Source: an uncultured Actinomycetota bacterium (GTDB lineage: Bacteria > Actinomycetota > Actinomycetes > Mycobacteriales > Pseudonocardiaceae). From it: 64,000 nucleotides of DNA. The notes beneath the pieces were generated by a model, which had not been told where the DNA came from, searched no databases, and worked only from the letters and a program-made list of their open reading frames with translations. The translations under genes and the position numbers were made by a program. Below are positions 37,179 to 56,932 of the stretch, piece after piece. The stretch is taken from assembly GCA_963841395.1 (NCBI GenBank), contig CAWJCX010000043.1, forward strand, positions 228,171-292,170, given 5' to 3'. How positions within the stretch are numbered: the first letter of the stretch is position 1; each line of letters opens with the position of its first letter.

Positions 37179-39361
37179 CGGTCAGGTGAGTTTGGTGAAG
37201 TTGTCGAAGCCGGTGCCGATCTGGATGCCGACGCCGGCGAAGGGGAGTCCGCCGGGGTTGCTGGCGCGGTTGTTGGGGTAGTAGTACAGCGTTCCGTCGG
37301 GCTTGCGGGCGAAGAGGTCGGCGCTGCCGTCACCGGAGAGGTCGGCGGCGTTGATGATGTCGAAGTTGTTGAAGCTGCTGGCGATCTGCGTGCCGCTCCC
37401 GACGAAGGGCAGGCCGCCGGGGTTGCTGGAGCGGTTGTTCGGGTAGTACCAGAGGCTGCCGTCCGGCTTGCGTGCCAGCAGGTCCGCGCTGCCGTCGCCG
37501 GAGATGTCGGCGCCGTCGATCCAGTCGAACCCGCCCCACCCGGTGCCGATCTGGGTGCCGGAGCCGTTGATCGGGTCACCGTCGGCGGTGCCGTCGTTGC
37601 GGTAGTACCACAGCGAACCGTCTGGCTTGCGTGCCAAAAGGTCCGCCCTGCCGTCACCGTCGATGTCGGCGGCGTCGACACGGTCGAAGGCGTTGAAGCC
37701 GGTGCCGATCTGGGTTCCGCTGCCCGCGAAGGGCAGGCCGCCCGGGTTGGAGCCACGGTTGTTCGGGTAGTACCAGAGCGTGCCGTCCGGCTTGCGGGCG
37801 TAGAGGTCCGCGCTGCCGTCGCCGGAGATGTCGGCGCCGTCGATCCAGTCGAACCCACCCCACCCGGTACCGATCTGGGCGCCCGACCCGTTGATCGGGT
37901 CGCCGTCGGCGGTGCCGTCGTTGCGGTAGTACCAGAGCGTGCCGTCCGCCTTGCCACCCAGTAGATCCGCGGCACCGTCACCATCGATGTCCGAACCGTC
38001 GCCGTGGTGGTGGGCCGCGGGCGCGGCCTCCGCCATGAGTTGCCGCGCCTTCGTCTCAGCGTCGCGGTACCGCAGCGGGCAGCACGAGTTCTGGACGTCG
38101 TCCGCGACCTGCCAGGCCGCGAACTCGGGATGTTCCCCCGCGCTGTTGATCGCTCTGCTGAAGAACTGGGTAGCGGCGTAGTCGACGTTCATGATCTGTT
38201 CGGGAGTGCCCCACCCCTGAGAAGGCCGCTGCTGGAACACGCCGAGCGAGTCCCGGTCCCCGCAGCTCAGGTTGTTCATGTGGGACTCGACCCACCCGGT
38301 CTCGAAGCCCGCGAGCATCACCTTGTCGGAGACGTGCAGGCGCTCGCCGACCCGGTACACGATGTTGATCACATTCGGGTCATGCTGTGCCGGAGGGTTG
38401 CACGATACTTTCAGGTCGTCCCGGGTCGGTGCGTCACCTGGCCGGGCGGCGGCTGGTCCCGCGGCGAGAACTCCGCCCGCGAGCGCGCCGGCGAGAAGGC
38501 TCGCCACGATTGCGATTGTGCGCATGGTGTTCTGTTCCTCGCGATGCCGGTCAGGTGAGTTTGGTGAAGTTGTCGAAGCCGGTGCCGATCTGGATGCCGA
38601 CGCCGGCGAAGGGGAGTCCGCCGGGGTTGCTGGCGCGGTTGTTGGGGTAGTAGTAGAGCGACCCGTCGGGCTTGCGGGCGAAGAGGTCGGCGCTGCCGTC
38701 ACCGGAGAGGTCGGCGGCGTTGATGATGTCGAAGTTGTTGAAGCTGCTGGCGATCTGGCTTCCGCTGCCGACGAAGGGCAGGCCGCCGGGGTTGCTGGAG
38801 CGGTTGTTCGGGTAGTACCAGAGCGTGCCGTCCGGCTTGCGTGCCAGCAGGTCCGCGCTGCCGTCGCCGGAGATGTCGGCGCCGTCGATCCAGTCGAATG
38901 CGCCGAAGCCGGTGCCGATCTGGGTGCCGGAGCCGTTGATCGGGTCGCCGTCTGCGGTGCCGTCGTTGCGGTAGTACCACAGCGAACCGTCTGGCTTGCG
39001 TGCCAGCAGGTCCGCCCTGCCGTCACCGTCGATGTCCGCGGCGTCGAGGCGGTTGAAGGCGTTGAAGCCGGTCCCGATCTGGGTTCCGCTGCCGACGAAG
39101 GGGAGTCCGCCGGGGTTGGAGCCACGGTTGTTCGGGTAGTACCACAGGGTTCCGTCTGGCTTGCGGGCGTAGAGGTCCGCGCTGCCGTCGCCGGAGATGT
39201 CGGCGCCATCGACCCAGTCGAACCCACCCCACCCGGAGCCGACCTGCGTGCCGGTCCCGTTGAACGGGTCACCGTCGGCGGTGCCGTCGTTCATGTAGTA
39301 CAGGAGCGAGCCGTCCGCCTTGAGGCCCAGCAGGTCCGCCTCGCTGTCACCGTTGATGTCC
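37179..39361. repeat. Near-identical direct repeat of ~0.8 kb (37179-37992 and 38548-39361) with an internal 324-bp period
   Basis: Both copies begin cggtcaggtgagtttggtgaagttgtcgaagccggtg (offset 1369); shadow ORFs recur at 324-bp spacing. Confidence 0.9.
37182..38525 (-). CDS. Secreted protein: putative peptidoglycan-hydrolase-like domain plus FG-GAP/VCBS repeats
   Basis: Signal peptide; ETGWVES..NL..GDRDSLGVFQQRPSQGWG; repeated ADI(S/D)GDG.ADL.ARK.DG.L.YY. Confidence 0.85.
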   Translation of the reverse strand: MRTIAIVASLLAGALAGGVLAAGPAAARPGDAPTRDDLKVSCNPPAQHDPNVINIVYRVGERLHVSDKVMLAGFETGWVESHMNNLSCGDRDSLGVFQQRPSQGWGTPEQIMNVDYAATQFFSRAINSAGEHPEFAAWQVADDVQNSCCPLRYRDAETKARQLMAEAAPAAHHHGDGSDIDGDGAADLLGGKADGTLWYYRNDGTADGDPINGSGAQIGTGWGGFDWIDGADISGDGSADLYARKPDGTLWYYPNNRGSNPGGLPFAGSGTQIGTGFNAFDRVDAADIDGDGRADLLARKPDGSLWYYRNDGTADGDPINGSGTQIGTGWGGFDWIDGADISGDGSADLLARKPDGSLWYYPNNRSSNPGGLPFVGSGTQIASSFNNFDIINAADLSGDGSADLFARKPDGTLYYYPNNRASNPGGLPFAGVGIQIGTGFDNFTKLT

Positions 39362-39930
39362 GTGCCATCCGGAGCGTGGGTCGGTCCGGTGTTCTCGACG
39401 ATCTTGTCGTACCGGATCGGCGTGTAGATCGAGGCGGTCGCCTGGCTCCAGGTCCGCTCGATGGTCGGGGCGCCGTTCGGGCCGGCCTGCTCGCGGACTC
39501 GCGGCTTGGTCTTCGTCGTGTCCGACCAGCCGATGAACATCGCGACGTGGCTGCCCGCGTCCAGTAACGCGTCACCGGGCCGCAGGTCCGCCCTGGCGAT
39601 AGTGTGCGACACCTGGTCGAGGGTGTCCGTCGTGTAGGAGATCCGCAGGCCCCAGATCATCGACAGGTACCCGGAACAGTCCGTGCGGTACTTGCCGTAC
39701 TGGTTCTCGTGGCAGTTCGACTGGCTGTACGGGACCCGCTCCTGCACCCACGTCGACGACCGGGCGAGGGCGGCGGTCCGCGTCATGGACTGGTTCGCGG
39801 CGTAGGTGTCGCAGTTGAACATGATGTGCACGTCGCCGGGCGACTGTTCCTGCGCCACCGCGGGAGTGGACAGCATCGCGGTGGCCGCGGCGGTGACGGC
39901 GGCACCCACCACAAGTCTTCGAATGATCAC
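38551..39930 (-). CDS. Secreted NlpC/P60-like protein plus FG-GAP/VCBS repeats
   Basis: VPYSQ..YRTDCSGYLSMIW, LRPGDALL..SHVAMF; same repeat tail as 37182-38525. Confidence 0.85.
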   Translation of the reverse strand: MIIRRLVVGAAVTAAATAMLSTPAVAQEQSPGDVHIMFNCDTYAANQSMTRTAALARSSTWVQERVPYSQSNCHENQYGKYRTDCSGYLSMIWGLRISYTTDTLDQVSHTIARADLRPGDALLDAGSHVAMFIGWSDTTKTKPRVREQAGPNGAPTIERTWSQATASIYTPIRYDKIVENTGPTHAPDGTDINGDSEADLLGLKADGSLLYYMNDGTADGDPFNGTGTQVGSGWGGFDWVDGADISGDGSADLYARKPDGTLWYYPNNRGSNPGGLPFVGSGTQIGTGFNAFNRLDAADIDGDGRADLLARKPDGSLWYYRNDGTADGDPINGSGTQIGTGFGAFDWIDGADISGDGSADLLARKPDGTLWYYPNNRSSNPGGLPFVGSGSQIASSFNNFDIINAADLSGDGSADLFARKPDGSLYYYPNNRASNPGGLPFAGVGIQIGTGFDNFTKLT

Positions 39931-40018
39931 TTTTCGGCTCTTTCCTCACTGGGACCTGGCAGCGAACAGGCTGCAGGGGCGGGCTGAAGAACTTCTGAAA
40001 GTCGCCCGCGAGGAAGTT

Positions 40019-42985
40019 TCAGACCGTGGGTGACGGCCGGCTTCGCGCCGCGTCGAAGGCAGGCCTCGGCTCCCGGGCTTCGTGGGTGCCGTACCGGGCG
40101 AAGAGGTCTCGCGCCTGCGCCCAGGCGTCGTCCGCCGCCCTGCCCTCGCCGAGACCGGTGAGCACAAGGGACAGATCCCGCAGGGTGCGAGCCCGCCACA
40201 CGGGCAGGGCAAGCGCCGCCCACCACTCCAGTGCGCGGTCGAGGAAGCGCCGCGCCTCGGCCGTCCTGCCCGACGCGAGCTCCAGCTCGCCGAGGGTGCG
40301 CAGCATCAGCGCCTGCCCGAACCCGTCCTGCATGTCGTTGCACACCGCGAGGCAGTCCAGGAGATCGTCGCGTACGGCATCGCCGAGCTGCTGACGGATG
40401 TGGACCTTCCCCAGCGACTGCTTGGCGTAGGCGAGAAGCAACCGCTCGCCGCTCGCGTGGAGCAGCTCCACCGCGCGGGCCGAGTACCGGGCGGCACAGG
40501 TCAGCCCGCCCGCGGCCCGGTGCACGATGCCGGTCGACCGCAGGACCATCGCCTCGCCGGCTCGGTCGCCGAGCTCGCGGTACACAGCGGCGGCACGCTC
40601 GCACTCGGCGAGCGCGGTCGCGAACTCACCCAGCTCCGTGGACACCCGCGCCAGCTCGTGGGCGGCCCGCGCGATGTCGCGCGGTTCGGTCAGGTCCACA
40701 GTGGCCAGCGCCAACACCTCGCGGGCCCGGGGGAGCAGGCCCTGCTCACGGAGCACGGTGCTCAGCGCGAGCCGCGTCCTGGCCTGGTGACGCCGGTCGT
40801 CCACCGAGGCGTACCCGGTGATCGCCTGCTCGTAGTAGGTCACGGCCTCGTCGAAGCGATCCTGTTCGTAGCGCAGCCAGCCCAGACCCGCCAGCAGCCG
40901 GGCCTCGCCCGCTCGGTCGCCGGCGGCTCCGGCGGCGGCCAGCGCTGCGGAGTGGGTTCGCCACCACTGGCTGAACTGGTTGCGGACCGCGAACCGCGAC
41001 GCGCACAGCGCGGACGCCAGCCGGGTCGCGACCCCCGTCAGCCCCAGCTCACTGACCCGCTCGACCACCCGGACCAACCCGGCCTGCTCACCCTCGAACC
41101 AGCCGTCGGAGTCCGCGAGCAGCTCGGCGACCACCTCCGGCCCCAGGTACGGATCGTCCGGCGGTGCCGCGTCGCCGCCCGCGGCCTCCACGAGCGTGAG
41201 CATGCTCTCGGCGGTCCTCGCCAGCGCCGCCCCCGCTTCGCCACCGGGTTCCTCGGCTTCGCCCCGTTCCCTGGCGAAGGCGCGGATCAGGTCGTGGACG
41301 TGGAACCGGAGCGGGCCGCCCTCCGCGGTCACCTCGAGCAGCTGCGCGTCGGCCAGCCGCTCGATCAGGTCCTCGGCCTCGTCGACCGAGCAGTCCAGCA
41401 GTGGCGCGATCACCCACCCGCCGCAGCTCGCCACGTCCATGAGCCCCAGCCTGCGCAGGGCGACCCGCTCGCGTTCGCCGAGCCCGTGGTAGCTGAGCGC
41501 GACGCTGCCGCGTACCTCGAGGTCGCCGACGGCCAGCTCGCTGAGGATGCCCCGCTGTGCTCGCAGCCGCTCCACCAGGCGGCCAAGTGTCCAATGTGGC
41601 CGGATGGCCAGCCGGGCGCCCGCGATGCGTAACGCCAGCGGCAGCCGGCCGCAGAGCCGGACGATCTCGCCGGCCTGCTCCCGTTCGGCGCGGACCCGGT
41701 CCGCGCCGACGACGACCTCCAGCAGCCGCATCGCCTCGGCGTCGTCGAGCAGGGTCAGGCGGAGGTGCGCGGCGCCGTCGAGCGCGCCGAGCCGTTCGCG
41801 GCTGGTGACCAGCACGGCGCAGTCCCCGCTGCCGGGCAGCAATGGGCGAACCTGCCGCTCGTCGGCGGCGTCGTCGAGGACCACGAGCACCCTGCGCTGG
41901 GCGAGCAGGGTGCGGTAGAGCCGGGTGCGTTCGTCCACATCGGACGGGATGGCGGCGGACGCCACGCCCAACGCCCGCAGGAACGTGGCGAGCACGTCAC
42001 CCGGATCCGCCGGGGTGGCCTGCACCCCGCGCAGCGACGCGTAGAGCTGCCCGTCGGGGAACTCCTCGCGCACCTGGTGAGCGATGTGGACGGCGAGCGC
42101 GCTCTTGCCCGCGCCCGGCGTGCCGAAGACGGCGCACAGTCGCCGGCCTTCGACGAGCGCCGGAACCAGCATGGCGGTCTCGGTGGCGCGACCGGTGAAG
42201 TCGGACACGTCCCACGGAAGCTGGTGTGGCCGCCGAACATCCGGTTCCTGATCGCCGCGGGCGACGTGCTCGAACGCGGCCCGCAAGGCCGGTCCCGGTT
42301 CCAGCCCGAGCTCGTCGCGCAGGACGGCGCACGCCTGCCGGTACTCGGCGAACGCGTCCGCCTGCCGGCCCGCCTGGTGCAGGGCGGTGACCAGCTGGCC
42401 GCGCAGCCGTTCCCGAAACGGGTTCTCGGCCGTCGCCGCCCGCAGGTCGGCGACGACCTCCGCGCCCCGCTCGGTCGCCAGGTAGGCGTCGGCCCGGTCC
42501 TCGATGGCGGCGAGCCGGAGCTCGTGCAGTCTCGCCCGCTCGCTCTCCGCCCACCAGCCCTGCGCCCCGCCGAGCGCGACCCCGCGCCACAACCCCAGCG
42601 CGTCGGTGAGTCCGGCCGCCGCCTCGCTGGGCCTGCCGTCGGCGAACGCGGCCCTGCCAAACGCGGCGTCCCGCTCGAACCGAAGGACGTCCACCTGCTC
42701 GGGATCGACCGCGAGGACGTAACCGCCGCCCGAGCGCACGATCACGTCCTCGCCACGCGCACCCGCGATCGACCGGCGAAGCGACGAGACGTACGTGTGC
42801 ACGGCCGCGCGGGCCTGGTTCGGCGGACCCGCACCCCAGATCGACTCCACGATCTCGTCGAACGAGACCCGCCGACCGGCGCGGACGGCAAGCAGCGCCA
42901 GCAACGTCGTGGGCTTCGGCCCCCCGATCGCTCCGGCCCGCCCGTCCCGGGCACACTCGACCGGCCCGAGCACCCGGAACTCCAT
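40019..42985 (-). CDS. AfsR-like SARP regulator (wHTH-BTAD-NB-ARC-TPR)
   Basis: MEFRVLGPV, LWRGVAL, ELGLEPG, GTPGAGKS, VVLDDA, CGRLPLAL, HDLIR, TPR-like tail. Confidence 0.92.
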   Translation of the reverse strand: MEFRVLGPVECARDGRAGAIGGPKPTTLLALLAVRAGRRVSFDEIVESIWGAGPPNQARAAVHTYVSSLRRSIAGARGEDVIVRSGGGYVLAVDPEQVDVLRFERDAAFGRAAFADGRPSEAAAGLTDALGLWRGVALGGAQGWWAESERARLHELRLAAIEDRADAYLATERGAEVVADLRAATAENPFRERLRGQLVTALHQAGRQADAFAEYRQACAVLRDELGLEPGPALRAAFEHVARGDQEPDVRRPHQLPWDVSDFTGRATETAMLVPALVEGRRLCAVFGTPGAGKSALAVHIAHQVREEFPDGQLYASLRGVQATPADPGDVLATFLRALGVASAAIPSDVDERTRLYRTLLAQRRVLVVLDDAADERQVRPLLPGSGDCAVLVTSRERLGALDGAAHLRLTLLDDAEAMRLLEVVVGADRVRAEREQAGEIVRLCGRLPLALRIAGARLAIRPHWTLGRLVERLRAQRGILSELAVGDLEVRGSVALSYHGLGERERVALRRLGLMDVASCGGWVIAPLLDCSVDEAEDLIERLADAQLLEVTAEGGPLRFHVHDLIRAFARERGEAEEPGGEAGAALARTAESMLTLVEAAGGDAAPPDDPYLGPEVVAELLADSDGWFEGEQAGLVRVVERVSELGLTGVATRLASALCASRFAVRNQFSQWWRTHSAALAAAGAAGDRAGEARLLAGLGWLRYEQDRFDEAVTYYEQAITGYASVDDRRHQARTRLALSTVLREQGLLPRAREVLALATVDLTEPRDIARAAHELARVSTELGEFATALAECERAAAVYRELGDRAGEAMVLRSTGIVHRAAGGLTCAARYSARAVELLHASGERLLLAYAKQSLGKVHIRQQLGDAVRDDLLDCLAVCNDMQDGFGQALMLRTLGELELASGRTAEARRFLDRALEWWAALALPVWRARTLRDLSLVLTGLGEGRAADDAWAQARDLFARYGTHEAREPRPAFDAARSRPSPTV

Positions 42986-44592: not shown

Positions 44593-45468
44593 GTGACGGA
44601 AAGCAAGAAGACGGTCGGCATCGTCGGCCTCGGTCTCATGGGCGCCTCGTTGGCGAGAGCGTTCCGGGACACGGGCGACTTTCAGGCGGTCGTCGGATAT
44701 GACGAGGCCCCGGCGGCAGTGCGCCGCGCACGTGACGAAGAATGCGTCGACGACGTGCTCGACACCGCCGCGGACGTCGCCCGCACTGCCGACCTGCTCG
44801 TCCTGTGCACACCCGTCCAGCAGATCATCACCTACCTCGAGGAACTGGCCCAGGAAATCCGCCCGGGCACGATCGTCATGGATATCGGGAGCACCAAGGT
44901 CGCCGTCACGGAGGCCATGACAAAGGTGCTGCCCGACGGCGTGATCCCGATCGGCGGGCACCCGATGACGGGGCCCGCGACCGCGGGGGTGCGGGGTCCC
45001 AGCGGGGAGATGTACAAAGGGCGTGTCTTCGTCCTGACCCCCACGGACAAGACGAGCTCCGAAACGGTCGCCTGGTGCACCGAGGCACTGACCAGGATTG
45101 GTGCGCGCGTGGAAGTCCTCGAGGCGGAACGCCACGATCGACTCGTCTCCATCGTCAGCCATCTGCCTCGGATGATCCCCGTGCCATTGCTCAGCCTGGC
45201 GATCGACGATCCGGATCCCATGGTGACGACACTGCCGGCAGGCGGATTTCGGGAGAGCACCCGCAAGGCCACCGGCAACCTCGACATGTGGGTGGACGTG
45301 CTGGCGACCAACAACACGCACATCGTCGAGACGATGCGGCGCTTCGCGCGGGAGGTCGATGCTGTCGCCGACAAGATCTCGGCGGCCGACCCCGCCGCTT
45401 TGCGGGAGATCTTGACCGACGCCGCCGATCGTTGGCACGGGCTATTCGGTTCCGAGGGTGTCAGTTGA
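44593..45468 (+). CDS. tyrA: Prephenate/arogenate dehydrogenase (no ACT domain)
   Basis: GLGLMGASL, DIGSTK, GGHPMTG, HD..VS..SHLP, GGFRESTR. Confidence 0.9.
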   Translation: MTESKKTVGIVGLGLMGASLARAFRDTGDFQAVVGYDEAPAAVRRARDEECVDDVLDTAADVARTADLLVLCTPVQQIITYLEELAQEIRPGTIVMDIGSTKVAVTEAMTKVLPDGVIPIGGHPMTGPATAGVRGPSGEMYKGRVFVLTPTDKTSSETVAWCTEALTRIGARVEVLEAERHDRLVSIVSHLPRMIPVPLLSLAIDDPDPMVTTLPAGGFRESTRKATGNLDMWVDVLATNNTHIVETMRRFAREVDAVADKISAADPAALREILTDAADRWHGLFGSEGVS

Positions 45469-48400
45469 CGATAAGGATATTCATCTCGTACCGACGAGCC
45501 GATTCCCGCGATGAGTGCTCCACGTTCAAGAAATATCTCGAAAGACATTACGGCTCGGTCTTCCTCGACACCGACACCATCCCGCCGGGAGCCAACTTTC
45601 CGGAGGAGATCAGGCAGTCGATCCGCTCGTCCGATGTCGTCCTGGTGGTGATCGGCCCGGCGTGGGACGGCGGTGGGTGCGTCCACGACGAGGGGGACTT
45701 CGTCCGGCAGGAGATCGAGTACGCGCTCGATCAGCGGAAACCGATCCTTCCCGTGCTCATCAAGGGCACGAGGATGCCGAACGCGACGGAGCTCCCCCCG
45801 ACGCTGGAGCGGCTCGCCTGGCTCAACGCGGTTGAGTCCCCAGGCGCGGCGGACCTGGGCTGGCTCCGGTCCGCGATCGACCAGACGGTGGACCCCGCCG
45901 AGTGGGACAGCGCCGCGGTGCAGTTCGCGGATCGAGTCCGGTCGTTGCTCGTTGCCGCGGGCGCACAGGCCACGTCCGCTCTGCAGGGCGAAGGGTCGGA
46001 AGACCCGTGGTTCACGGTCCGGACGTCCGAGGCGTACGGCGCGCTGGAGGTCGGCACCACCGTCGTGGCCTGCACGACCCGCGAGCCGACGCGGACTCGC
46101 GTGCAGCGTGTGCGGGACGCCGTGAGATCGCTGGGGGCGGATCACGGAACACTTGTCGTCGACGATCGGGTCGACTTCGACGGTGCCAAGTCGGATATCG
46201 ACTTCGCCGAAGTTCGCGTCCTCTCCTACCGCGACCTCATCGGCATGCTGGTCTCGCTCGGCGGATATTTCGTCAAACTCGAACGCGAGTACCGACGCTT
46301 TCTCAGATCGGGTTCCCAGTACGTCGATCTCGAAGCGGCCACGTCGGAGAGGCAGGACAGTGGCGAAGAGATCGCGCAGCGATCGCGGTCGTCGCTTCTC
46401 GAGTACGTCGACCGTTGGCAGGAGGACGAGAGCGGGACGCAGCTCGCCATCCTCGGCGACTTCGGCAGTGGCAAGAGCCTGTTCTCGCTGCGATACGCAA
46501 ATGGTCAACGGCAGCGCTACGAGCACGCCCCGGTGGGCTCCGCGTCGCCTCGCATCCCGATCCTGATCCGACTCGGTCAGGCAGCGGGCGCCAACACCAA
46601 CGAGGTCGGTGCCGCGGCATCGGTGCAGCATGCCTTCCTGGCCATGTTCTGCGCACAGAACGATCTCGACGGCAAGGCCGCCGACATCCTCGTCGAGCTG
46701 AACCGGCAGGGCCGGCTGCTGATCATCTGTGACGGCTTCGACGAGTTCCCACGTGCTTCGCACGAGTCGGTTGTCGCCGCGTTCAACCGCCTGCGGCAGC
46801 TCGCGGACCGCGAAAGCAAGCTGATCGTGACCTCCCGGACGCTCTACTTCCGTGATGTCCGGGAGGAGGCCGCCGCGATCCTCAGCGGTCGGGGGCGCCG
46901 GTTCGACATCCTCTATCTGCGAGAGTTCAGGCGCGCGCAGATCTGGGAGGTGCTCAAGGTCCGGTACGGCGAAGGCGCGGAACGGCGCTGGGAGATCATC
47001 GAGAACACGTACGGTCTGCTCGACCTGGTCCGCCGGCCCTTCGTCCTCGACCTCGCGTTATCGGTCCTCCCATCGCTCAAGGGGCGTTCGCGGACAACTC
47101 TCACGGAGCTCTACAACCTCTTCACGAGTCGTTGGATCGCGGATGTCGGCGGATCGCGTCCGCACGTCCTCAAGCCCGCTGCGCGCAAATACCTGATGCA
47201 GCGGCTCGCGTGGACGATGTTCTTGGCAGACACGCTCGAGGTTCGCCCCGAAGCTGTGTCCGCGATCGTGGCAGAGGCGCGGATCTCGAGCCCCGGTGAT
47301 GTGGCGACCGCCGAGGAAGAGCTCAAGACCCAGAGCTACCTGGCACGCAATGGTGTCGGCAAGTACTACTTCGCACACAAGTCGTTCCTGGAGTACTTCG
47401 TCGCGACGCACCTCGTGGACGAGCTCGCGGCCGGCCGGTTCGAAGCACTCGGGATGCGAACGCTGTCGCCGGAGATTCTCGCGTTCATGGCGGACAGCGA
47501 GGTCGACAGCAACGGCCTCTACGACGTGCTTTCGGACATCCGTGGCGATCGCGGGGACCGGTTCTCGGCCGGGAACGTCCTGTCGCTGCTGAACGCCCTG
47601 CCGTATTCGCTCCGGCGACTGGACTTCTCCGATCTGACCATCGTCGGGGCGAACCTCGCCGGTGCGGATCTGCGCGGATCGCGCTTCACGGGCTCGGAGC
47701 TCAAGTCCATGAACGTGATAGACGCGAACCTGAGTCGGACGGACTTCACCAACGCGCGGTTCACCGATCTGATTCTGGGCGTGCGCTCGGCCGGAAAGGG
47801 TGTGGCGACGAACAACGCCGGCGACAGTGCAGTCACCGTTGGTGACAACAGTGTCAAGGTACTGAGCGCGAACGGCGCCGAGTTGGCCTCGTTCTACGGA
47901 CCGAAAGACTCGCTGACAAGCGTGCAGTTCAGCCGGGACTCGCGATGGGTCGCTGCTGGGAGTTTTGACTCGACCGCGACGGTGTGGGCGACCGACCAGG
48001 TGCGTGACGACTTCTCCTACGTAGTTCTCCATGGCCACACCTCGACGGTTTTCGACGTCGCCTTCGATGCGAGTGGCGAGTATCTGTTCACCGCCGGGAA
48101 TGACTGGATGGTGAAGGCCTGGCGAATCAAGGACGGCGCGGAGTTCTGGTCGTCGCGAGAGCACGAGGCCACCGTCTACTCGATCAACTCCTCGCCCGAC
48201 GGTCATCGGCTCGCGACCGGGAGCTTCGACGCGACCGTCGGGCTGTGGCAGCTCGCCGTGGACCGGGTGCACGGCCCGGGGCTCCGCGACGTGGAGCGCA
48301 TGGAGGGTCACGAGGACCTGGTGAACGGCGTGGCCTGGAGCCCGAGCGGCGACGTCGTGGCGTCGGCCAGCAACGACGGGACCGTCCGGCTCTGGGACCT

Positions 48401-48815
48401 CGGCCGACGGGTTTCGCGCATCGTTCTCACCGGGCACAGGACGATCGTGTGGTCGGTGGCGTTCAGCCACGACGGACGGCTTCTCGCCAGCGGCGACTCG
48501 AACGGGGTCATCCGGGTGTGGGACGTCTCGGACCCGCGTAGCAGTCGTAGCATCCCGTGCCTTCGGGTCATACCCGCGCACGAGGCGGCCGTCTGGAGCC
48601 TGGCCTTCCTCCATGACGACAGCGGCATCGTCAGCGGGAGTTTCGACGGCACCATGCGTTGCTGGAGCACCACCGGCGCTACCCGTTGGGACATCATGGC
48701 CCTCGAAGAAGACAAGAACCAACGGATCAATTGTTCGAGCATGCGAATCACCGGCGCGGAAGGGCTGAGTCCCTTGCAGGAACGGTTCCTCAAGCAGAAG
48801 GGCGCTAGAAGGTAG
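45465..48815 (+). CDS. TIR - REase-like - NACHT - pentapeptide - WD40 (NLR-like STAND) protein
   Basis: IFISYRR..VFLD..VRQEIEYA; GDFGSGKS; LIICDGFDE; IVTSR; FAHKSFLEYF; ANLAGADLRG; ~7 GH..WD-type repeats; TTGA overlap with tyrA. Confidence 0.92.
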   Translation: MTIRIFISYRRADSRDECSTFKKYLERHYGSVFLDTDTIPPGANFPEEIRQSIRSSDVVLVVIGPAWDGGGCVHDEGDFVRQEIEYALDQRKPILPVLIKGTRMPNATELPPTLERLAWLNAVESPGAADLGWLRSAIDQTVDPAEWDSAAVQFADRVRSLLVAAGAQATSALQGEGSEDPWFTVRTSEAYGALEVGTTVVACTTREPTRTRVQRVRDAVRSLGADHGTLVVDDRVDFDGAKSDIDFAEVRVLSYRDLIGMLVSLGGYFVKLEREYRRFLRSGSQYVDLEAATSERQDSGEEIAQRSRSSLLEYVDRWQEDESGTQLAILGDFGSGKSLFSLRYANGQRQRYEHAPVGSASPRIPILIRLGQAAGANTNEVGAAASVQHAFLAMFCAQNDLDGKAADILVELNRQGRLLIICDGFDEFPRASHESVVAAFNRLRQLADRESKLIVTSRTLYFRDVREEAAAILSGRGRRFDILYLREFRRAQIWEVLKVRYGEGAERRWEIIENTYGLLDLVRRPFVLDLALSVLPSLKGRSRTTLTELYNLFTSRWIADVGGSRPHVLKPAARKYLMQRLAWTMFLADTLEVRPEAVSAIVAEARISSPGDVATAEEELKTQSYLARNGVGKYYFAHKSFLEYFVATHLVDELAAGRFEALGMRTLSPEILAFMADSEVDSNGLYDVLSDIRGDRGDRFSAGNVLSLLNALPYSLRRLDFSDLTIVGANLAGADLRGSRFTGSELKSMNVIDANLSRTDFTNARFTDLILGVRSAGKGVATNNAGDSAVTVGDNSVKVLSANGAELASFYGPKDSLTSVQFSRDSRWVAAGSFDSTATVWATDQVRDDFSYVVLHGHTSTVFDVAFDASGEYLFTAGNDWMVKAWRIKDGAEFWSSREHEATVYSINSSPDGHRLATGSFDATVGLWQLAVDRVHGPGLRDVERMEGHEDLVNGVAWSPSGDVVASASNDGTVRLWDLGRRVSRIVLTGHRTIVWSVAFSHDGRLLASGDSNGVIRVWDVSDPRSSRSIPCLRVIPAHEAAVWSLAFLHDDSGIVSGSFDGTMRCWSTTGATRWDIMALEEDKNQRINCSSMRITGAEGLSPLQERFLKQKGARR

Positions 48816-48896
48816 CAAAGATCTCGCCGGTCGGCCGGGTCACGCCAGATGCGCACCGTGGGATATCGTGACCAGGCGTCCAGCAGTGGAGGAATC

Positions 48897-49748
48897 GTGG
48901 CGATTGGTTATCTCGGTCCGGAAGGGACATTCACGCACTCGGCGGCGCGTGAACTGTGCCCAGGTGCCGATCTCATTCCGGTGCCGACGCAGGGTCAGGC
49001 AATCGAGCAGGTCGAAGCCGGCCTCCTCGACGGAGCCGTCGTGCCGGTCGACAACTCGGTCAACGGAGTTGTCCTGCCGACCTGGGACGCGCTGCTCGGC
49101 ACCACGCAGAGCAAGATCGTCGCGGACACCCTTACCCCGGTGACCTTCAACGCCTACACCCTCACGCCCGACGAAGCCCCGACGGCCGTCGTGAGCCACC
49201 CGCACGCGTTGGCTCAATGCGCGGGCTACGTCGCGTCCCTGGGAGTGCCGACGCGCACGGCGTCGTCGACCGCGGAGGCGTGCGCCAACCTCGCTCCGGG
49301 CGAGGTCGCGATCGCGGCACCGGTATGTGCGGAGCTCTACCCCGTGACGACCATCGCGGAGAAGGTCGAGGACGGGGCAGGGGCGATCACCCACTTCGGA
49401 CTCGTGTCGCGCGACGAGCAGTCACCGGCGGCGGAGCGCTGGGCGAGTGTCATCGCCGCTCTGCCGATGCGGAACGCGCCCGGCAGCCTTGCCGCCTTGC
49501 TGGCACCGCTTGCCGATCTGGGTTGCAACCTGTCGAACATCGTTCCGCGTCCGCTGCGCGGCACTGCCGACTACGCGTTCCTGCTCTTCCTCACCGACGT
49601 CGACCACCATCGGGAGGAGCAGGCCCTCGGCGGGCTCGACGCCCAGTGTTCGGCGGTGTCGTTGCTCGGGCGCTTTTCCGCGACCAAGATCTGGAACACC
49701 GACGCCGCGCCGCAGATCCCGGCCCGACTCCAAGTCGCGAGGGCCTGA
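48897..49748 (+). CDS. pheA: Prephenate dehydratase with ACT domain (divergent)
   Basis: YLGPEGTFT, VVPVDNSVNG, SHPHALAQC, STAEA, ITHF, NAPGSL..L...GCNLSNI; GGAGG RBS. Confidence 0.85.
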   Translation: MAIGYLGPEGTFTHSAARELCPGADLIPVPTQGQAIEQVEAGLLDGAVVPVDNSVNGVVLPTWDALLGTTQSKIVADTLTPVTFNAYTLTPDEAPTAVVSHPHALAQCAGYVASLGVPTRTASSTAEACANLAPGEVAIAAPVCAELYPVTTIAEKVEDGAGAITHFGLVSRDEQSPAAERWASVIAALPMRNAPGSLAALLAPLADLGCNLSNIVPRPLRGTADYAFLLFLTDVDHHREEQALGGLDAQCSAVSLLGRFSATKIWNTDAAPQIPARLQVARA

Positions 49749-49805
49749 GGCGCACCGAGCGAATATCGATAGCCGGCCGAGCGGCGCCGACCTAGGGTTC
49801 GCCGA

Positions 49806-50627
49806 ATGGTGGACGCGGAGATCTTGGCGTTCTACGAACGCGGTCTGGAACAGGGGCGGTTGGCCGCCGGCGGGCAGCGGATCGAGTTCCTGCGGGTGTG
49901 GGACTTGTTGCAGCGGCAGCTGCCGAAGTCGCCGGCGCGGATCTTGGACGTGGGAGGCGGCGCGGGCGTCTACGCCTTGCCGTTGGCTGCGGCCGGATAC
50001 GAGGTCCACCTGGTCGATCCGGTGCCGCTGCACGTCGAGCAGGCCGCAGCGGCGTCTCGAGCCGCCGCCGTTCCGTTGGCCGGCGTGGCTGTCGGCGACG
50101 CGAGGGAACTGGACGCCTCGGCGGACAGCATGGACGCCGCACTGCTTCTCGGACCGCTGTATCACCTGACGGTGCGCGACGACCGTATCGCGGCCCTTCG
50201 GGAGGCGCGGCGGGTCGTGCGACCGGGCGGCGTCGTCGTGGCGAAGGCGTTGTCCCGGTTCTATCCGTTGTTCGAGAACATCGCCCGAGGCACCCCGGTC
50301 CAGCGCGACGACGCGGAGTGGACCGCGACCTTCCTCGGCGACGGGCAATACCGCAACCACGGGGGTGACCCGGAGCTGTTCACCACGTCCTACTTCCACC
50401 TGCCCGACGAGTTCGCGGACGAGGTGAGGGCTGCAGGTCTGGTACTCAATGATCTCGTCGCCGCCAGCGGCGTGACGAAGCTGCTGCCCGAGTTCACCGA
50501 GCGGCTGGACGAGCCAGCACAGCGCGCGCGGGTTCTGACGGTGCTGCGCCTACTCGAGTCCGAGCCCTCGCTGCTCGGCATGAGCCAGAACTTCGTCGCC
50601 ATCGCCCACGTACCCGCCGAGGACTGA
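49806..50627 (+). CDS. Class I SAM-dependent methyltransferase
   Basis: ILDVGGGAG, LVDPV, GDAREL, LLLGPLYHL, RVVRPGG. Confidence 0.9.
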   Translation: MVDAEILAFYERGLEQGRLAAGGQRIEFLRVWDLLQRQLPKSPARILDVGGGAGVYALPLAAAGYEVHLVDPVPLHVEQAAAASRAAAVPLAGVAVGDARELDASADSMDAALLLGPLYHLTVRDDRIAALREARRVVRPGGVVVAKALSRFYPLFENIARGTPVQRDDAEWTATFLGDGQYRNHGGDPELFTTSYFHLPDEFADEVRAAGLVLNDLVAASGVTKLLPEFTERLDEPAQRARVLTVLRLLESEPSLLGMSQNFVAIAHVPAED

Positions 50628-50644: not shown

Positions 50645-51874
50645 TCAGTGCTGTTCGAGCAGCGTCGTGGTTCGGGCTATTACTTCCGAAGGGAGCTCGT
50701 CGTCGGTGAAGGCGTTGTGGCGCCAGGAAAGCGTCCAGTGCTGCCCGGTCCGGCGGACGGTGAGGCGGAACGGCGTGAACGGGTAGCGTGGCGGCCGGGA
50801 ATGCGACGGTCGCACGGGGGAGAGTGCGAACGGGGGCACGACATAACGCGTCGCGTCGAGTGAGCCGTGGAAGTTGACGAACGCGTGCGCGCCGAGCTGT
50901 TTGTCGACCGAAACCGTCGGCAACCGCCGCACCGCGGGAAACGCGGCGTCCCACGATTGTTCGCGTGCCTTCACCTCGCCGAGCTGGCGAGTCACGTCGG
51001 CCGGTGAGGGACTGCCTTTCCAGTCGACGAAATACGGCACGACCCGGGCGATACAGCCGATCGCCGTCCACCTGGGTCGGGTCAGCCGGCCGTGGCTGGC
51101 GACGTCGACGCGTGTGCGGGTCAGTCCGCAGACGTCCCGCAGGCTTCGGCTCACCGCCGCGACGACGTCGAGTTCGGTCAGTTGGCCGGTGTGGGGGATC
51201 GACTCGATCCGCTCGGTCCAGTCCTGCTCGGCCACCGGGTCGCCGCTGAGTCCGGGCACGGCGGACAGCTCGGTCCAGGGCTGGTGCAGCCACCAGGTCA
51301 CGTTCGAGTTCGGGGAGGACGACCGGCGCGCCGTCGCGATCTCGCCGAGGTAGGTGTCGTACCCGTCGTCGTCGGAACCGGCAACGGTGTGGCCGTTGTA
51401 CAGGTGCGCGAACTCGCGCCCCATCATCATCACCGACAGCAGATCGGAGACGAAATGGGTGAACGCGAGCACCAGGTAGCTGGTGACGGCGATCCGCGCG
51501 CTGACCACGCCCCAGGTTCGACCCTCGACGACATCGAAGTCGCGCGCGAGATCGGCGAGGCCGCCGGTGAGCAGTTCCGCCACACGGCCAGCATCTGACT
51601 CGGCGATCTCGTGGATCGCGACCTCGCCCGTGCCGCGGTCGGCAGGGTCGACGATCTGCCGGCAGTTCTCCGCCTCGCCGAACTCATTGAGACGCGCGCG
51701 CAACGCGGGATGGCGCCGGCGCAGCTCGACGACGGCTTGCGCCAGACGGCGACGGTCGACCGGTTCGTCGACGACCAGGGTCACGGCGAGAACGTGAGCA
51801 TTGATGAATACCGGACCATAAGGACCAAACACCGAATCGAACTGTCCCGGAGTCAGCGGATAAACCGTGGATAT
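50645..51874 (-). CDS. Stand-alone condensation-domain protein
   Basis: YPLTPGQ, RRHPALRARL, THFVSDLLS, HGR, AIGCIARVVP, FVNFHG; first canonical start 51832, RBS-supported ATA at 51874. Confidence 0.75.
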   Translation of the reverse strand: MSTVYPLTPGQFDSVFGPYGPVFINAHVLAVTLVVDEPVDRRRLAQAVVELRRRHPALRARLNEFGEAENCRQIVDPADRGTGEVAIHEIAESDAGRVAELLTGGLADLARDFDVVEGRTWGVVSARIAVTSYLVLAFTHFVSDLLSVMMMGREFAHLYNGHTVAGSDDDGYDTYLGEIATARRSSSPNSNVTWWLHQPWTELSAVPGLSGDPVAEQDWTERIESIPHTGQLTELDVVAAVSRSLRDVCGLTRTRVDVASHGRLTRPRWTAIGCIARVVPYFVDWKGSPSPADVTRQLGEVKAREQSWDAAFPAVRRLPTVSVDKQLGAHAFVNFHGSLDATRYVVPPFALSPVRPSHSRPPRYPFTPFRLTVRRTGQHWTLSWRHNAFTDDELPSEVIARTTTLLEQH

Positions 51875-52370: not shown

Positions 52371-53316
52371 TCAGCTCGTGACGAGTGACTTGTGGATCAT
52401 GCTTTCGGCGGCGGCGACGATGGCTTGCTCGGGATCGCGGGGTGCCAGGCCGAGCAGGTCACGGGCCTTGTCCCCGGAGACCTTCTGGCGTAGCCGAGGT
52501 CGGGGGCGATCGGGCGGAACTCCGCGTTGAACCGGGCGGCGAGGCGGACGACGAAGTCCGGGATGCCGCGGGTGGGTACCCGCTTGGCCGGCGTCGCCGA
52601 GGTGTTCCTTGAGGATGGCGCCGATCCGTTTCATGGGGATCGCGGGCCCGCCGGAGATCAGGATGCGCTGCCCGGCGGCCCGCGGTGCGGTCATGGCCAG
52701 CACGTGGGCGCGGGCGACGTCGCGGACGTCGACTATCGGGAGCCACAGGTCGGGGAAGCCGGGCAGCCGGCCGGCGAGCATGCGCTGGACGATGTGGTTC
52801 GAGCCGGAGATGTCCTTGCCCATGACCGGGCCCATGACGGCCACCGGCAGGATCGTGGTCAGCCCGATGTGCCCGCCCTCGGCCTCGACGAAGTCCCACG
52901 CGGCGCGCTCGGCGAGGACCTTGCTGCGCCCGTAGGCGTCCATGCCGGGGCCGTCGAGCACCGACCAGTCCTCCTCGCAGCATGCGCAGGGCACCGTCGC
53001 GGGCCAGTGCGATCACCTCGTCCTCGTCGGCGACGTGCCCGGGGACCACGGGGGAGGCGACGTGCAGGACGTGGTCACAGCCGCCGACCGCCTCGGCCCA
53101 CCCGGCGTCGCCGGTCAGGTCCGCCTCGACGAAGGCCAGGTCGTCGCCGCGGGTCATCCCCGCGTCGGTGAGCACCGCCCGCACCGCGGCCTCCCGCCCC
53201 AGCGACCGAACGGTGGTGCGAACCCGGTAACCCTGGTCGAGGAGTTGCAGCACACAGTGCCCGGCGATGAAACCGGACCCACCGGTCACGAGGACGAGCT
53301 GCTGGTTGTCGCTCAT
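52371..53316 (-). pseudogene. NAD-dependent epimerase/aldehyde reductase (extended SDR) with internal deletion and frameshifts
   Basis: VTGGSGFIA, LHVASP and YGRSK are present, but GALRMLR is joined out of frame to EEDWS at ~52977, so the usual RVVLTSS segment is missing. Confidence 0.7.
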
Positions 53317-53394
53317 GGACCTTCCCGGTGCGCGGGCTACGTGGCGGTGACCATTGTCCGCGCACCGCGGCCCGGCGCCACCGAGACGGTCCGG

Positions 53395-55177
<1,783 letters not shown>

Positions 55178-55178
<1 letters not shown>

Positions 55179-56932
55179 CACGCGGCCTCCTCGACGGTCA
55201 GCTGTGAGTCGACGATCTGCGCGTAGGTGGGGCTGGCGGCAAGGAGTTCCTCGTGGGTGCCGACGGCCTCGACCTGGCCCGCCTCGAGCACCACGATCGT
55301 GTCCGCGGTGCGGATGGTGGACACCCGCTGCGCGACGATCACCTGGGTGGCGTCGGCGATCTCGCGAGCGAGCGCGGTACGCAACGACAGCTCGGTGGCG
55401 TTGTCCAGCGCGGAGAACGCGTCGTCGAACAGGTAGATCCGCGGCCGCGCCAGCAACGCCCTGGCGATCGCCAGCCGCTGGCGCTGACCGCCGGACACCG
55501 TGCCGCCGCCCTGCCCGATTGCCGTGTCCAGCCCGTCCGGCATCGCCTTGACGAACCCGGCCGCCTGGGCGACCTCCAGCGCGTGCCACAACTGCTCGTC
55601 GTCGGCGGAGGGGCTGCCGTAGCGCAGGTTGTCCGCGACCGTGCCGGCGAACAGGTAGGCCCGCTGGGGCACCAGCCCGACGTGCGCGGCCAGGTCGCGC
55701 CTGGCCAGGTCCCGCACGTCGGCGCCGTCGATGCGGATCGCGCCGTGGTCGACGTCGAGCAGTCGGGCGACGAGGTTGACCAGGGTCGTCTTGCCGCTAC
55801 CGGTCGAGCCGGTGATCGCGGTCGTCCGGCCGGGCCGGGCGGACAGGCTCACCCCGCGCAGGACGGGACGTTCGGCACCCGGATAGCCGAACGTGACGTC
55901 GGCGATCGCAAGGTCACCCCGCCAGTTCGCGACGCTGACCGGTTCGACCGGGTCGCCGATGCTCGGCTCGGTCGTCAGCACCTCGGCGATCCGGCCGGCG
56001 CTGACCTTCGCGCGTGGCGCCAGCATGAACGCGCCCATCGCAGCCATGACCGCGCCCAGGATCTGGGTCAGGTAGGTCAGGAACGCGATCAGTTCCCCCA
56101 CCCGCAGGTCGCCGTCCACGATCCGCTGCCCGCCGATCGCCAGCACCGCGACCGCCGCCAGGTTGGAGATCACCAGCGACGCGGCGCCGAAGAACGCCTG
56201 CACCCGGCCCAACCGGATGCCCACCGCCATCAGGTCGGTGTTCGCCTCGGCGAACCGGCGTCGCTCGTGCGCGTCGCGGACGAAAGCCCGGATCACGCGG
56301 ATGCCGGTGATCTGCTCGCGCATCACCCGGTTGACCGCGTCCACGTACCGCTGCAGCAGCCGCGACGCGGGCACCATCCGCCGGATGAGCAAACCGATCG
56401 TCACCATCCCGACCGGCACCGCCACCAGCAGCACCAGCGACGCCGTCACGTCCTGCCGCACGGCGAGGAAGACCCCGCCCACCGCCACGAACGGCGCGGG
56501 CAGCAGCAGGGTCACGATGGTGAACACCAGCAGCTGCACCTGCTGGACGTCGTTGGTGCTGCGGGTCAGCAACGACGAGGCGCCGAACCGGCCCAGCTCC
56601 CGGCCGGAGAAGCCCGACACCCGGTCGAACAGCGCCACCCGCAGGTCCGCACCCAGCCCCATCGCGACCCGCGCGCCCAGATACACCGCGGCGCCCGTGC
56701 ACCCGACCTGTGCCAGCGTGGCCGCGAGCATGATCCCACCGTGTCCGATGACATATCCGGTATTGCCGGTGAGTACGCCGTAGTCGACCACGTCGGCATT
56801 GAGAGTCGGCAAATACAGCATCGCCAGCGCCTGCACGGCCTGGAGCACGGCGACCGCGACAATCGGCCGACGGTAGGGACCCAACCGGGGACGCAGCAAG
56901 GACAACACCGACGATTCGGTGGGTGAGGTCAT
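55178..56932 (-). CDS. ABC exporter, permease plus ATPase (heterodimer partner)
   Basis: SLLTRSTNDVQQVQ, GSTGSGKTT, VSGGQRQRL, LFDDAFSALD, VAQRVSTI. Confidence 0.92.

What the first reader, a model, noticed from the sequence alone, without database searches (positions are those of the whole stretch)
44593..50627. NLR-like TIR-NACHT-WD40 gene placed between tyrA and pheA
Seen: the tyrA stop overlaps the NLR start (TTGA), pheA begins about 80 bp after the NLR stop, then a methyltransferase; all are co-oriented in a region with more A/T than its flanks. The TIR Glu (VRQEIEYA) and Walker A/B are intact. Known: bacterial NACHT and TIR-STAND proteins are anti-phage NADase effectors; TyrA and PheA compete for prephenate and TyrA uses NAD(P)+. 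Inference: an undescribed defence or stress module in which the aromatic amino acid enzymes are guarded decoys, signal makers or effectors.
Basis: partly seen in the sequence, partly recalled or inferred. Interest (0 to 1): 0.82.

Follow-up and report, generated by a model that had tools for sequence, protein, structure and literature searches.

The report
NLR receptor with dedicated prephenate enzymes
A rare bacterial immune-type receptor gene sits beside its own extra copy of a tyrosine-pathway enzyme at every locus found, and usually beside a phenylalanine-pathway enzyme too, in both actinomycetes and alphaproteobacteria; the enzymes likely control a small molecule that the receptor reads before it would destroy NAD+, a link between amino-acid metabolism and immunity that my searches did not find described.

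Summary
tyrA (44593-45468) overlaps a 1,116-aa TIR–inactive REase–NACHT–pentapeptide–WD40 gene (45465-48815), followed by pheA (48897-49748). The genome has separate housekeeping tyrA and pheA.

The receptors form one clade (SH-aLRT 100) spanning actinomycetes and alphaproteobacteria. tyrA is adjacent on 10 of 10 contigs, in both gene orders; pheA is present on 8 of 9 that can be judged. None of 59 other NACHT loci has either gene, though only 20 have 1 kb on both sides.

TyrA and PheA were each taken from more than one donor (AU p=0.005 and 0.001), keep most catalytic residues and carry changes at feedback sites. Two of six Promicromonospora genomes lost the receptor secondarily; in one complete chromosome the module's PheA is the only dehydratase, so it is probably active. 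The methyltransferase is not a conserved part.

Best reading (0.4): an abortive NADase receptor tuned by a prephenate-branch metabolite. Main rival (0.25): TyrA is a bound cofactor or guardee. No phage, biochemical or structural evidence was obtained. No description was found in the paper searches.

The parts
44593..45468 (+). TyrA, prephenate dehydrogenase (291 aa, no ACT domain); found beside the receptor at every locus
   Evidence: Pfam PDH_N and PDH_C. GxGxxG, D37, S100, K102, H123 and H181-D182 kept; SHLPR in place of SHxPH. Adjacent to the receptor on 10 of 10 contigs.
45465..48815 (+). NLR-like STAND receptor, 1,116 aa: TIR – inactive REase – NACHT – pentapeptide – WD40
   Evidence: Own clade with alphaproteobacterial members, SH-aLRT 100.
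45477..45833 (+). TIR domain (residues 5-123), predicted NADase; E83 at 45711-45713
   Evidence: Pfam TIR_2 6.8e-17. Best PDB sequence match is SARM1 TIR, 1.7e-9. E83 invariant in 9 of 9 aligned homologues.
45891..46268 (+). Inactive restriction-endonuclease-like domain (NA-iREase1 type, residues 143-268)
   Evidence: HHalign probability 96.6, E 5e-10, against the sister receptors' region that Pfam calls PF22722.
46443..46940 (+). NACHT/STAND ATPase core (Walker A GDFGSGKS, Walker B LIICDGFDE, TSR sensor)
   Evidence: Pfam NACHT 3.4e-5, below its cut-off. Motifs conserved in 17 of 17 aligned rows.
47610..48710 (+). Pentapeptide repeat (716-769) followed by WD40 propeller (about 779-1082); presumed sensor
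   Evidence: Pfam PF00805 3.4e-8 and PF00400 9.4e-51.
48897..49748 (+). PheA, prephenate dehydratase (283 aa) with THF for TRF and no ESRP motif; usual but dispensable partner
   Evidence: Pfam PDT 3e-37; closest solved chain 3LUY. Present on 8 of 9 contigs that can be judged. An orthologue is the only PDT in G239.
49806..50627 (+). Class I SAM methyltransferase; co-oriented passenger, not a conserved part of the module
   Evidence: Pfam Methyltransf_25. No tblastn hit in 11 of 11 related loci. Linked to pheA in close soil relatives X2 and X3.

Best explanation
This is a mobile receptor module whose TIR domain is predicted to destroy NAD+ once the NACHT ATPase oligomerises, likely to abort a phage infection, and whose own TyrA (always present) and PheA (usually present) are likely working, feedback-relaxed enzymes that would hold a prephenate-branch metabolite at the level that keeps the receptor off. 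Shown: the gene set, its co-inheritance, intact motifs, repeated replacement of both enzymes from different donors, and loss of the receptor but never of tyrA. Inferred: (1) NADase output, from family membership; (2) a defence role, about 0.7, from sister clades; (3) TyrA is functionally required by the receptor, about 0.75; (4) the link runs through a metabolite (prephenate, 4-hydroxyphenylpyruvate/Tyr or NADH) and not only through contact; (5) PheA balances the branch so that an unregulated TyrA does not starve Phe synthesis, which would explain why several kinds of PDT serve, why one locus lacks it and why one TyrA of the same clade is fused to it. The phage trigger is not identified.
For: Clade and synteny: the receptors form one clade, SH-aLRT 100. 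tyrA is adjacent on 10 of 10 contigs and pheA on 8 of 9; neither occurs at 0 of 59 other NACHT loci, 20 of which have 1 kb or more on both sides by my count of the table. Gene order varies: tyrA-NLR-pheA, NLR-tyrA-pheA, pheA-NLR-tyrA. Activity is what seems to be kept: monophyly is rejected for the module TyrAs (AU p=0.0046) and PheAs (p=0.0013). Feedback sites: module TyrA has no ACT domain, and in the actinomycete clade Arg replaces the His that follows SHxP. His217 is required for Tyr inhibition (PMC2954222, passages); equating the two positions rests on alignment plus recall. Actinomycete PheA lacks ESRP, and L121, L126 and P0341 lack the ACT domain (motif roles from PMC13217925, passages). 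PheA works: 24 of 30 Promicromonospora genomes have one PDT, the 4 with the receptor have two, and the 2 without it have only the module copy; in G239 the housekeeping pheA is cleanly deleted. Selection: dN/dS is 0.1-0.65 in all three genes with similar dS per genome pair. Defence context: sister receptors carry ThsA-like SIR2 and lie beside DpdJ, NERD-helicase and DinG.
Against: No experiment and no structure supports any step. The module itself is not in a defence island at the loci inspected, and PADLOC has no model for its TyrA or PheA. tyrA and pheA stay under unchanged purifying selection after receptor loss (G239 dN/dS 0.21-0.34), so they have value on their own. The alphaproteobacterial TyrAs lack the Arg of the TRxA motif, which in E. 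coli lowers substrate affinity; this fits a scavenger poorly. L038 PheA keeps TRF and a full-length C-terminal region. The ESRP and TRF changes are shared with 3LUY, so they may be inherited from the donor and not selected here. Start-stop overlap of tyrA with the receptor at 5 of 9 loci fits a protein complex equally well. The sample is small and partly redundant (L126/L127, L028/L030). I know of no phage process that disturbs prephenate flux (recalled).
Confidence: 0.4

Rival explanations
1. TyrA is a bound subunit or guardee. It docks on the WD40 or inactive REase domain, as EF-Tu does in Avs7 or DnaJ for bNACHT25, and a phage protein that binds or displaces it switches the TIR on. PheA only offsets TyrA's drain on prephenate.
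For: tyrA and the receptor overlap at start/stop in 5 of 9 loci, in both orders, whereas pheA never overlaps the receptor. No receptor was found without tyrA; two losses of the receptor alone. All module TyrAs fall in one 48-row clade (SH-aLRT 99). Precedents: PMC13581612 (abstract and Discussion); PMC12169576 (passages).
Against: Module TyrAs are not monophyletic (AU p=0.0046) and are only about 38% identical between phyla, so one interface would have to survive a swap. Catalytic residues are kept, which a pure decoy does not need.
Confidence: 0.25
2. Cargo. tyrA and pheA are metabolically useful passengers that favour retention of the island; the receptor senses a phage protein directly, like other Avs/bNACHT proteins, and does not need them.
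For: The enzymes persist, stay under selection and replace a housekeeping gene after the receptor is lost. Most Avs families sense phage proteins directly (PMC13581612, abstract).
Against: It does not explain tyrA on 10 of 10 contigs across two phyla, three gene orders and repeated re-acquisition from different donors, against 0 of 59 for other NACHT loci. The hosts checked that carry the receptor already have housekeeping copies.
Confidence: 0.15
3. The module is a non-viral stress or developmental switch. The STAND reads aromatic amino-acid status, or an antimetabolite of the pathway, and triggers NAD+ signalling or dormancy.
For: No defence-island context at the module's own loci. G000 holds several other TIR and WD40 genes. 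Defence and non-defence STAND clades are interspersed (PMC13581612 section 5).
Against: Very patchy distribution: 0 of 23 congeners, 0 of 400 genomes of the order, 4 of 30 Promicromonospora, at different sites in different genomes. Sister receptors are defence-linked.
Confidence: 0.12
4. The TIR makes an aromatic-amino-acid–ADP-ribose conjugate, analogous to His-ADPR of type II Thoeris. TyrA and PheA supply the acceptor, or TyrA, which binds NAD and Tyr side by side, is the receiver.
For: His-ADPR precedent (10.64898/2025.12.03.692087, passage). TyrA binds Tyr next to NAD+ (PMC2954222). Altered side-chain-binding residues.
Against: No Macro, SLOG or membrane effector is conserved in the module. 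The effector differs between phyla: TIR_2 here, DUF4062-like in L038 (weak hit), and DUF4062 proteins are reported as plain NADases (10.64898/2026.05.01.722283, listing and passages). The Thoeris ThcB4 model scores 49 bits against a cut-off of 220.
Confidence: 0.08

Closest known systems
Bacterial NLR-related NACHT proteins (bNACHT; 10.1101/2022.07.19.500537, passages) and Avs STAND receptors (PMC13581612, abstract and sections 5 and 13)
   Same: Effector–NACHT–repeat sensor layout; TIR or SIR2 NAD+-targeting effectors, REase, pentapeptide and WD40 parts; patchy distribution.
   Different: Those tested are mostly single genes that sense phage proteins directly. 'Prephenate' occurs 0 times in both main texts and in the 7 supplements held for PMC13581612. 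Here a biosynthetic enzyme is encoded beside the receptor at every locus found.
bNACHT25–DnaJ (PMC12169576, passages) and Avs7–EF-Tu (PMC13581612)
   Same: A STAND receptor that depends on a housekeeping-type protein; guard or cofactor logic.
   Different: They borrow the host's own protein. This module carries its own divergent copy of a metabolic enzyme, and usually a second one.
Clover CloA/CloB (PMC12265719, abstract and start of text); Hailong is named there
   Same: An accessory enzyme makes a small molecule that restrains a toxic effector; this is the logic proposed here.
   Different: There the signal is a nucleotide from a nucleotidyltransferase and the effector is a dGTPase. Here the enzymes act on prephenate and the effector is a STAND-linked TIR.
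Sister clade SIR2–iREase–NACHT–pentapeptide–WD40 beside DUF6884 (L112, L114, L119, L128, L166)
   Same: Same iREase–NACHT–pentapeptide–WD40 body, also preceded by a small dedicated gene.
   Different: SIR2 or other effector, DUF6884 partner, defence-island setting; no tyrA or pheA.
Housekeeping TyrA and PheA of aromatic amino-acid operons
   Same: Same folds and most catalytic residues; the module PheA is the only PDT in G239.
   Different: Second copies, 28-36% identical to the host's own; no aro genes beside them; feedback sites altered.

Membership tests
Bacterial NACHT/STAND receptor (bNACHT/Avs type) | STAND ATPase with intact Walker A, Walker B and sensor motifs | tested here: met
   GDFGSGKS, LIICDGFDE and TSR conserved in 17 rows; Pfam NACHT 3.4e-5, below its cut-off
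Bacterial NACHT/STAND receptor (bNACHT/Avs type) | N-terminal effector with catalytic residue | tested here: met
   TIR_2; E83 aligned to the SARM1 Glu and invariant in 9 of 9
Bacterial NACHT/STAND receptor (bNACHT/Avs type) | C-terminal repeat sensor | tested here: met
   WD40 9.4e-51 and pentapeptide 3.4e-8
Bacterial NACHT/STAND receptor (bNACHT/Avs type) | Location in or near defence islands | tested here: not met
   Flanks are unrelated metabolic genes at the module loci inspected; met only for the sister clade
Bacterial NACHT/STAND receptor (bNACHT/Avs type) | Protects against phage; NAD+ loss on activation | not testable with these tools
   Needs phage challenge and NAD+ assay
Named Avs1-21 or bNACHT family | Match to a curated full-length model or solved Avs structure | tested here: not met
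   PADLOC 2023 gives only TIR and WD40 fragments; NCBIfam gives nothing over cut-off; no Avs chain among 30 PDB matches to residues 1-780. The 589 clades of PMC13581612 could not be matched by sequence.
Thoeris (TIR signalling) | TIR gene plus a separate signal-binding effector (ThsA type) | tested here: not met
   No conserved effector gene; ThcB4 model 49 bits against cut-off 220
Prephenate dehydrogenase (TyrA) | Rossmann motif, catalytic His/Ser, His-Asp relay, substrate-binding Arg | tested here: met
   G12/G14/G17, D37, S100, H123, H181-D182 and R224 kept in the window's protein; the Arg is absent in the alphaproteobacterial members; substrate not assayed
Prephenate dehydratase (PheA) | TRF catalytic triad and ESRP regulatory motif | tested here: inconclusive
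   THF/TQF and NIVPRP instead; 3LUY has TDF and SFISRP; activity is supported indirectly by replacement of the housekeeping gene in G239
Housekeeping aro/phe/tyr operon interrupted by an insertion | Sole copies, vertical inheritance, empty site in relatives | tested here: not met
   Second copies exist in G000; the block is not found in 40 relatives; receptor-less pairs are derived

The most novel reading that the evidence does not exclude
A bacterial NLR that guards the prephenate branch point. It carries its own feedback-relaxed tyrosine and phenylalanine enzymes to fix the level of an aromatic metabolite, and fires its TIR NADase when infection shifts that level. Among the papers I saw, this would be the first bacterial NLR gated by an amino-acid-pathway small molecule, and it would imply an unrecognised phage attack on aromatic amino-acid metabolism.
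Probability: 0.3. Interest if true: 0.92.

Novelty: new variant of a known kind. Interest (0 to 1): 0.74.

Why it matters
The STAND receptors characterised so far sense phage proteins directly or through a borrowed host protein; PMC13581612 (Discussion) lists sensing of non-protein molecules as an open possibility. This module is a compact, three-gene candidate for that, or for a self-encoded guardee. It is present in named Promicromonospora genome records (L027, L028, L030, L031), and natural variants exist without pheA and without the receptor, so the design of the test is already given. It also documents a passenger enzyme of a probable defence module displacing a housekeeping gene.

Tried and rejected
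Searches with no result. Single-sequence scan of genome contigs with TyrA: 0 of 82 candidates; the alignment scan worked. Viral contigs: 0 of 102 candidates encode the receptor. Plasmids: 8 records with distant cyanobacterial NACHT-WD40 and 37 with TyrA at 36% identity or less; neighbourhoods not opened. Chloroflexota sample: 1 of 401 genomes matched, a sister-clade receptor with no tyrA on its 11.6-kb contig. Alphaproteobacteria sample: 1 of 401, the seed genome itself. No Rfam match in 7 loci; no promoter-like site and no excess of terminators; no terminal repeats bounding the module. No RNA holder listed. Earlier scan findings: nothing on this module. ESM Atlas gave only a lead for the middle domain (Mrr_cat cluster, 0.86).

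Not available. Complex prediction never ran, and the single-chain fold job did not finish, so there is no model, no fold search and no binding test.

Rejected ideas. Chance insertion into a housekeeping operon. Methyltransferase as a member. L030 receptor as broken: the gap is a run of N. Receptor-less pairs as the ancestral state. Relaxed selection after receptor loss: not seen. The whole 48-row TyrA clade as receptor-linked: the 9 other loci inspected (L032-L035, L037, L039-L041, L043) have no such receptor nearby; no receptor was found in 3 of those genomes, and L034, L035 and L039 are the only TyrA found in their genomes. Dead-decoy and toxic-effector readings of PheA.

Paper searches. Searches (6 papers hold both terms, 5 listed, none relevant by title; 0; 0; 0; none listed holds 'prephenate dehydrogenase'). 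bioRxiv supplements were closed and most subscription papers are not held, so a table entry could have been missed.
Full report
Observation. tyrA runs 44593-45468, and its TGA overlaps the TTG of a 1,116-codon gene ending at 48815. pheA starts 81 bp later at 48897, and a methyltransferase follows at 49806-50627. The large protein has a TIR_2 domain (5-123), a NACHT core with intact Walker A and B, a pentapeptide repeat and a WD40 propeller. Its best PDB sequence match is SARM1 TIR, with E83 on the SARM1 Glu. Residues 143-268 match the NACHT-associated inactive REase region of sister proteins (HHalign 96.6). The block is 66.5% G+C in a 71.4% genome. Contigs from two other soil studies cover both junctions.

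Not housekeeping. G000 has a second PDH and a second PDT elsewhere, 28-36% identical to the window's proteins. The tyrA-receptor-pheA block has no DNA match in 40 relatives. The TyrA was not found in 23 congeners, nor the receptor in 400 genomes of the order.

A conserved module. Homologue searches gave tight clades for all three proteins. Loci show tyrA-NLR-pheA in four Promicromonospora genomes (L027, L028, L030, L031), at three or more different chromosomal sites. They also show tyrA-NLR without pheA (L107), NLR-tyrA-pheA in an alphaproteobacterial MAG (L038) and pheA-NLR-tyrA in metagenome contigs L121 and L126; L127 starts inside the receptor. On a tree of the ATPase core these receptors form one clade (SH-aLRT 100, quick tree). 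tyrA is adjacent on 10 of 10 contigs of this clade and pheA on 8 of the 9 that can be judged. Neither is present at any of 59 other NACHT loci, though only 20 of those have 1 kb on both sides. L126/L127 and L028/L030 are close relatives, so the independent count is lower. tyrA and the receptor overlap at start and stop in 5 of 9 loci, in both orders. All three genes are under purifying selection with similar dS per genome pair. The methyltransferase is absent from 11 of 11 related loci.

Repeated recruitment. While the receptor is one clade, its partners are not. The module TyrAs lie among Chloroflexota- and Acidobacteriota-type TyrAs, and holding them together is rejected (AU p=0.0046). The module PheAs fall in three places, and their monophyly is rejected too (p=0.0013; long branches are involved). 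One TyrA of the alphaproteobacterial subclade, P0341, is fused to an ACT-less PDT; its genomic context is unknown. The simplest reading is that the receptor has kept the two activities while swapping the proteins.

Enzyme state. The window's TyrA keeps the NAD-binding motif, S100, H123, H181-D182 and R224, has no ACT domain, and has Arg where solved TyrAs have His after SHxP. His217 of Aquifex PDH is needed for tyrosine inhibition (PMC2954222, passages); that this is the same position is from alignment and recall. The alphaproteobacterial TyrAs keep that His but lack the Arg. PheA has THF for TRF and lacks ESRP (motif roles: PMC13217925, passages), as does solved chain 3LUY. L121 and L126 PheA lack the ACT domain, while L038 keeps a full-length protein.

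Natural deletions. Six of 30 Promicromonospora genomes carry the enzyme pair; four have the receptor. G042 (L029) keeps only its last ~40 codons, and G239, a single 5.2-Mb contig, has lost it cleanly. Both are nested among receptor-bearing strains. In both, the module PheA is the only PDT; in G239 the housekeeping pheA is deleted from an otherwise collinear locus. G042 is a MAG, so its missing housekeeping pair may be an assembly gap. PheA is therefore probably an active, non-toxic dehydratase. Selection on both enzymes is unchanged in G239.

Defence. PADLOC and NCBIfam hold no model for the module, and its own loci are not defence islands. Sister receptors with the same body carry ThsA-like SIR2 domains and lie next to DUF6884, NERD-helicase, DinG and DpdJ. 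L038 has a weak DUF4062 hit at its N-terminus, a family reported as TIR-like NADases (10.64898/2026.05.01.722283, listing and passages). An abortive NADase role is therefore likely (about 0.7) but inferred.

Mechanism. I put 0.4 on metabolite gating: feedback-relaxed TyrA, balanced by PheA, would set a prephenate-branch metabolite that keeps the receptor off, on the logic of Clover (PMC12265719, abstract). I put 0.25 on TyrA as a bound cofactor or guardee, as in Avs7–EF-Tu (PMC13581612, abstract and sections 5 and 13) or bNACHT25–DnaJ (PMC12169576, passages). Cargo gets 0.15, a non-viral switch 0.12 and an amino-acid–ADPR signal 0.08. No structure or complex model was obtained, so contact versus metabolite is open.

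Novelty. The receptor is a known kind; a dedicated prephenate-enzyme partner was not found described. Searches listed nothing relevant. 'Prephenate' is absent from the main texts of five papers searched for it and from the 7 supplements held for PMC13581612. bioRxiv supplements and most subscription papers were not visible. Verdict: new variant of a known kind, interest 0.74.

Noticed in passing
L166:7763-19592; also L112, L114, L119, L128: A sister receptor clade (SIR2 or other effector–iREase–NACHT–pentapeptide–WD40) sits directly behind a DUF6884 gene (weak PADLOC PDC-M57A match; L114 also has a Vut_1 transporter), followed by NERD-helicase, TPR-cold-shock and RNase HII–DinG genes. It may be a second receptor-plus-dedicated-partner pair.
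   Followed up: partly
L210:8075-8139 (G239): Clean deletion of the housekeeping pheA, leaving the module's pheA as the only dehydratase; that pheA carries a short tandem-repeat insertion before the ACT domain.
   Followed up: yes
protein P0341: TyrA of the alphaproteobacterial module subclade fused to an ACT-less prephenate dehydratase; genomic context unknown.
   Followed up: partly
L038:3395-5860: An 821-aa protein with hydrophobic segments upstream of the alphaproteobacterial module; no Pfam or PADLOC match. It resembles SLOG/SLATT-type proteins from recall only.
   Followed up: partly
L033:8484-10253; L037:8682-10490: A two-gene pheA-tyrA unit in two Chloroflexota MAGs that each have a second TyrA. 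Its TyrA is close to the actinomycete module TyrA, and no receptor was found in either genome; a possible donor or a receptor-less derivative.
   Followed up: partly
window 52371-55589: An epimerase and an ABC-transporter gene appear split across reading frames, suggesting indel errors or decay.
   Followed up: no
window 37182-42985: Two adjacent, probably secreted proteins with near-identical FG-GAP-like repeat tails and different N-terminal domains, beside an AfsR-like SARP regulator; a second low-G+C stretch.
   Followed up: no
window 50645-51832: A free-standing condensation-domain gene convergent with the module; 76-84% identical copies lie in other contexts in two congeners.
   Followed up: partly
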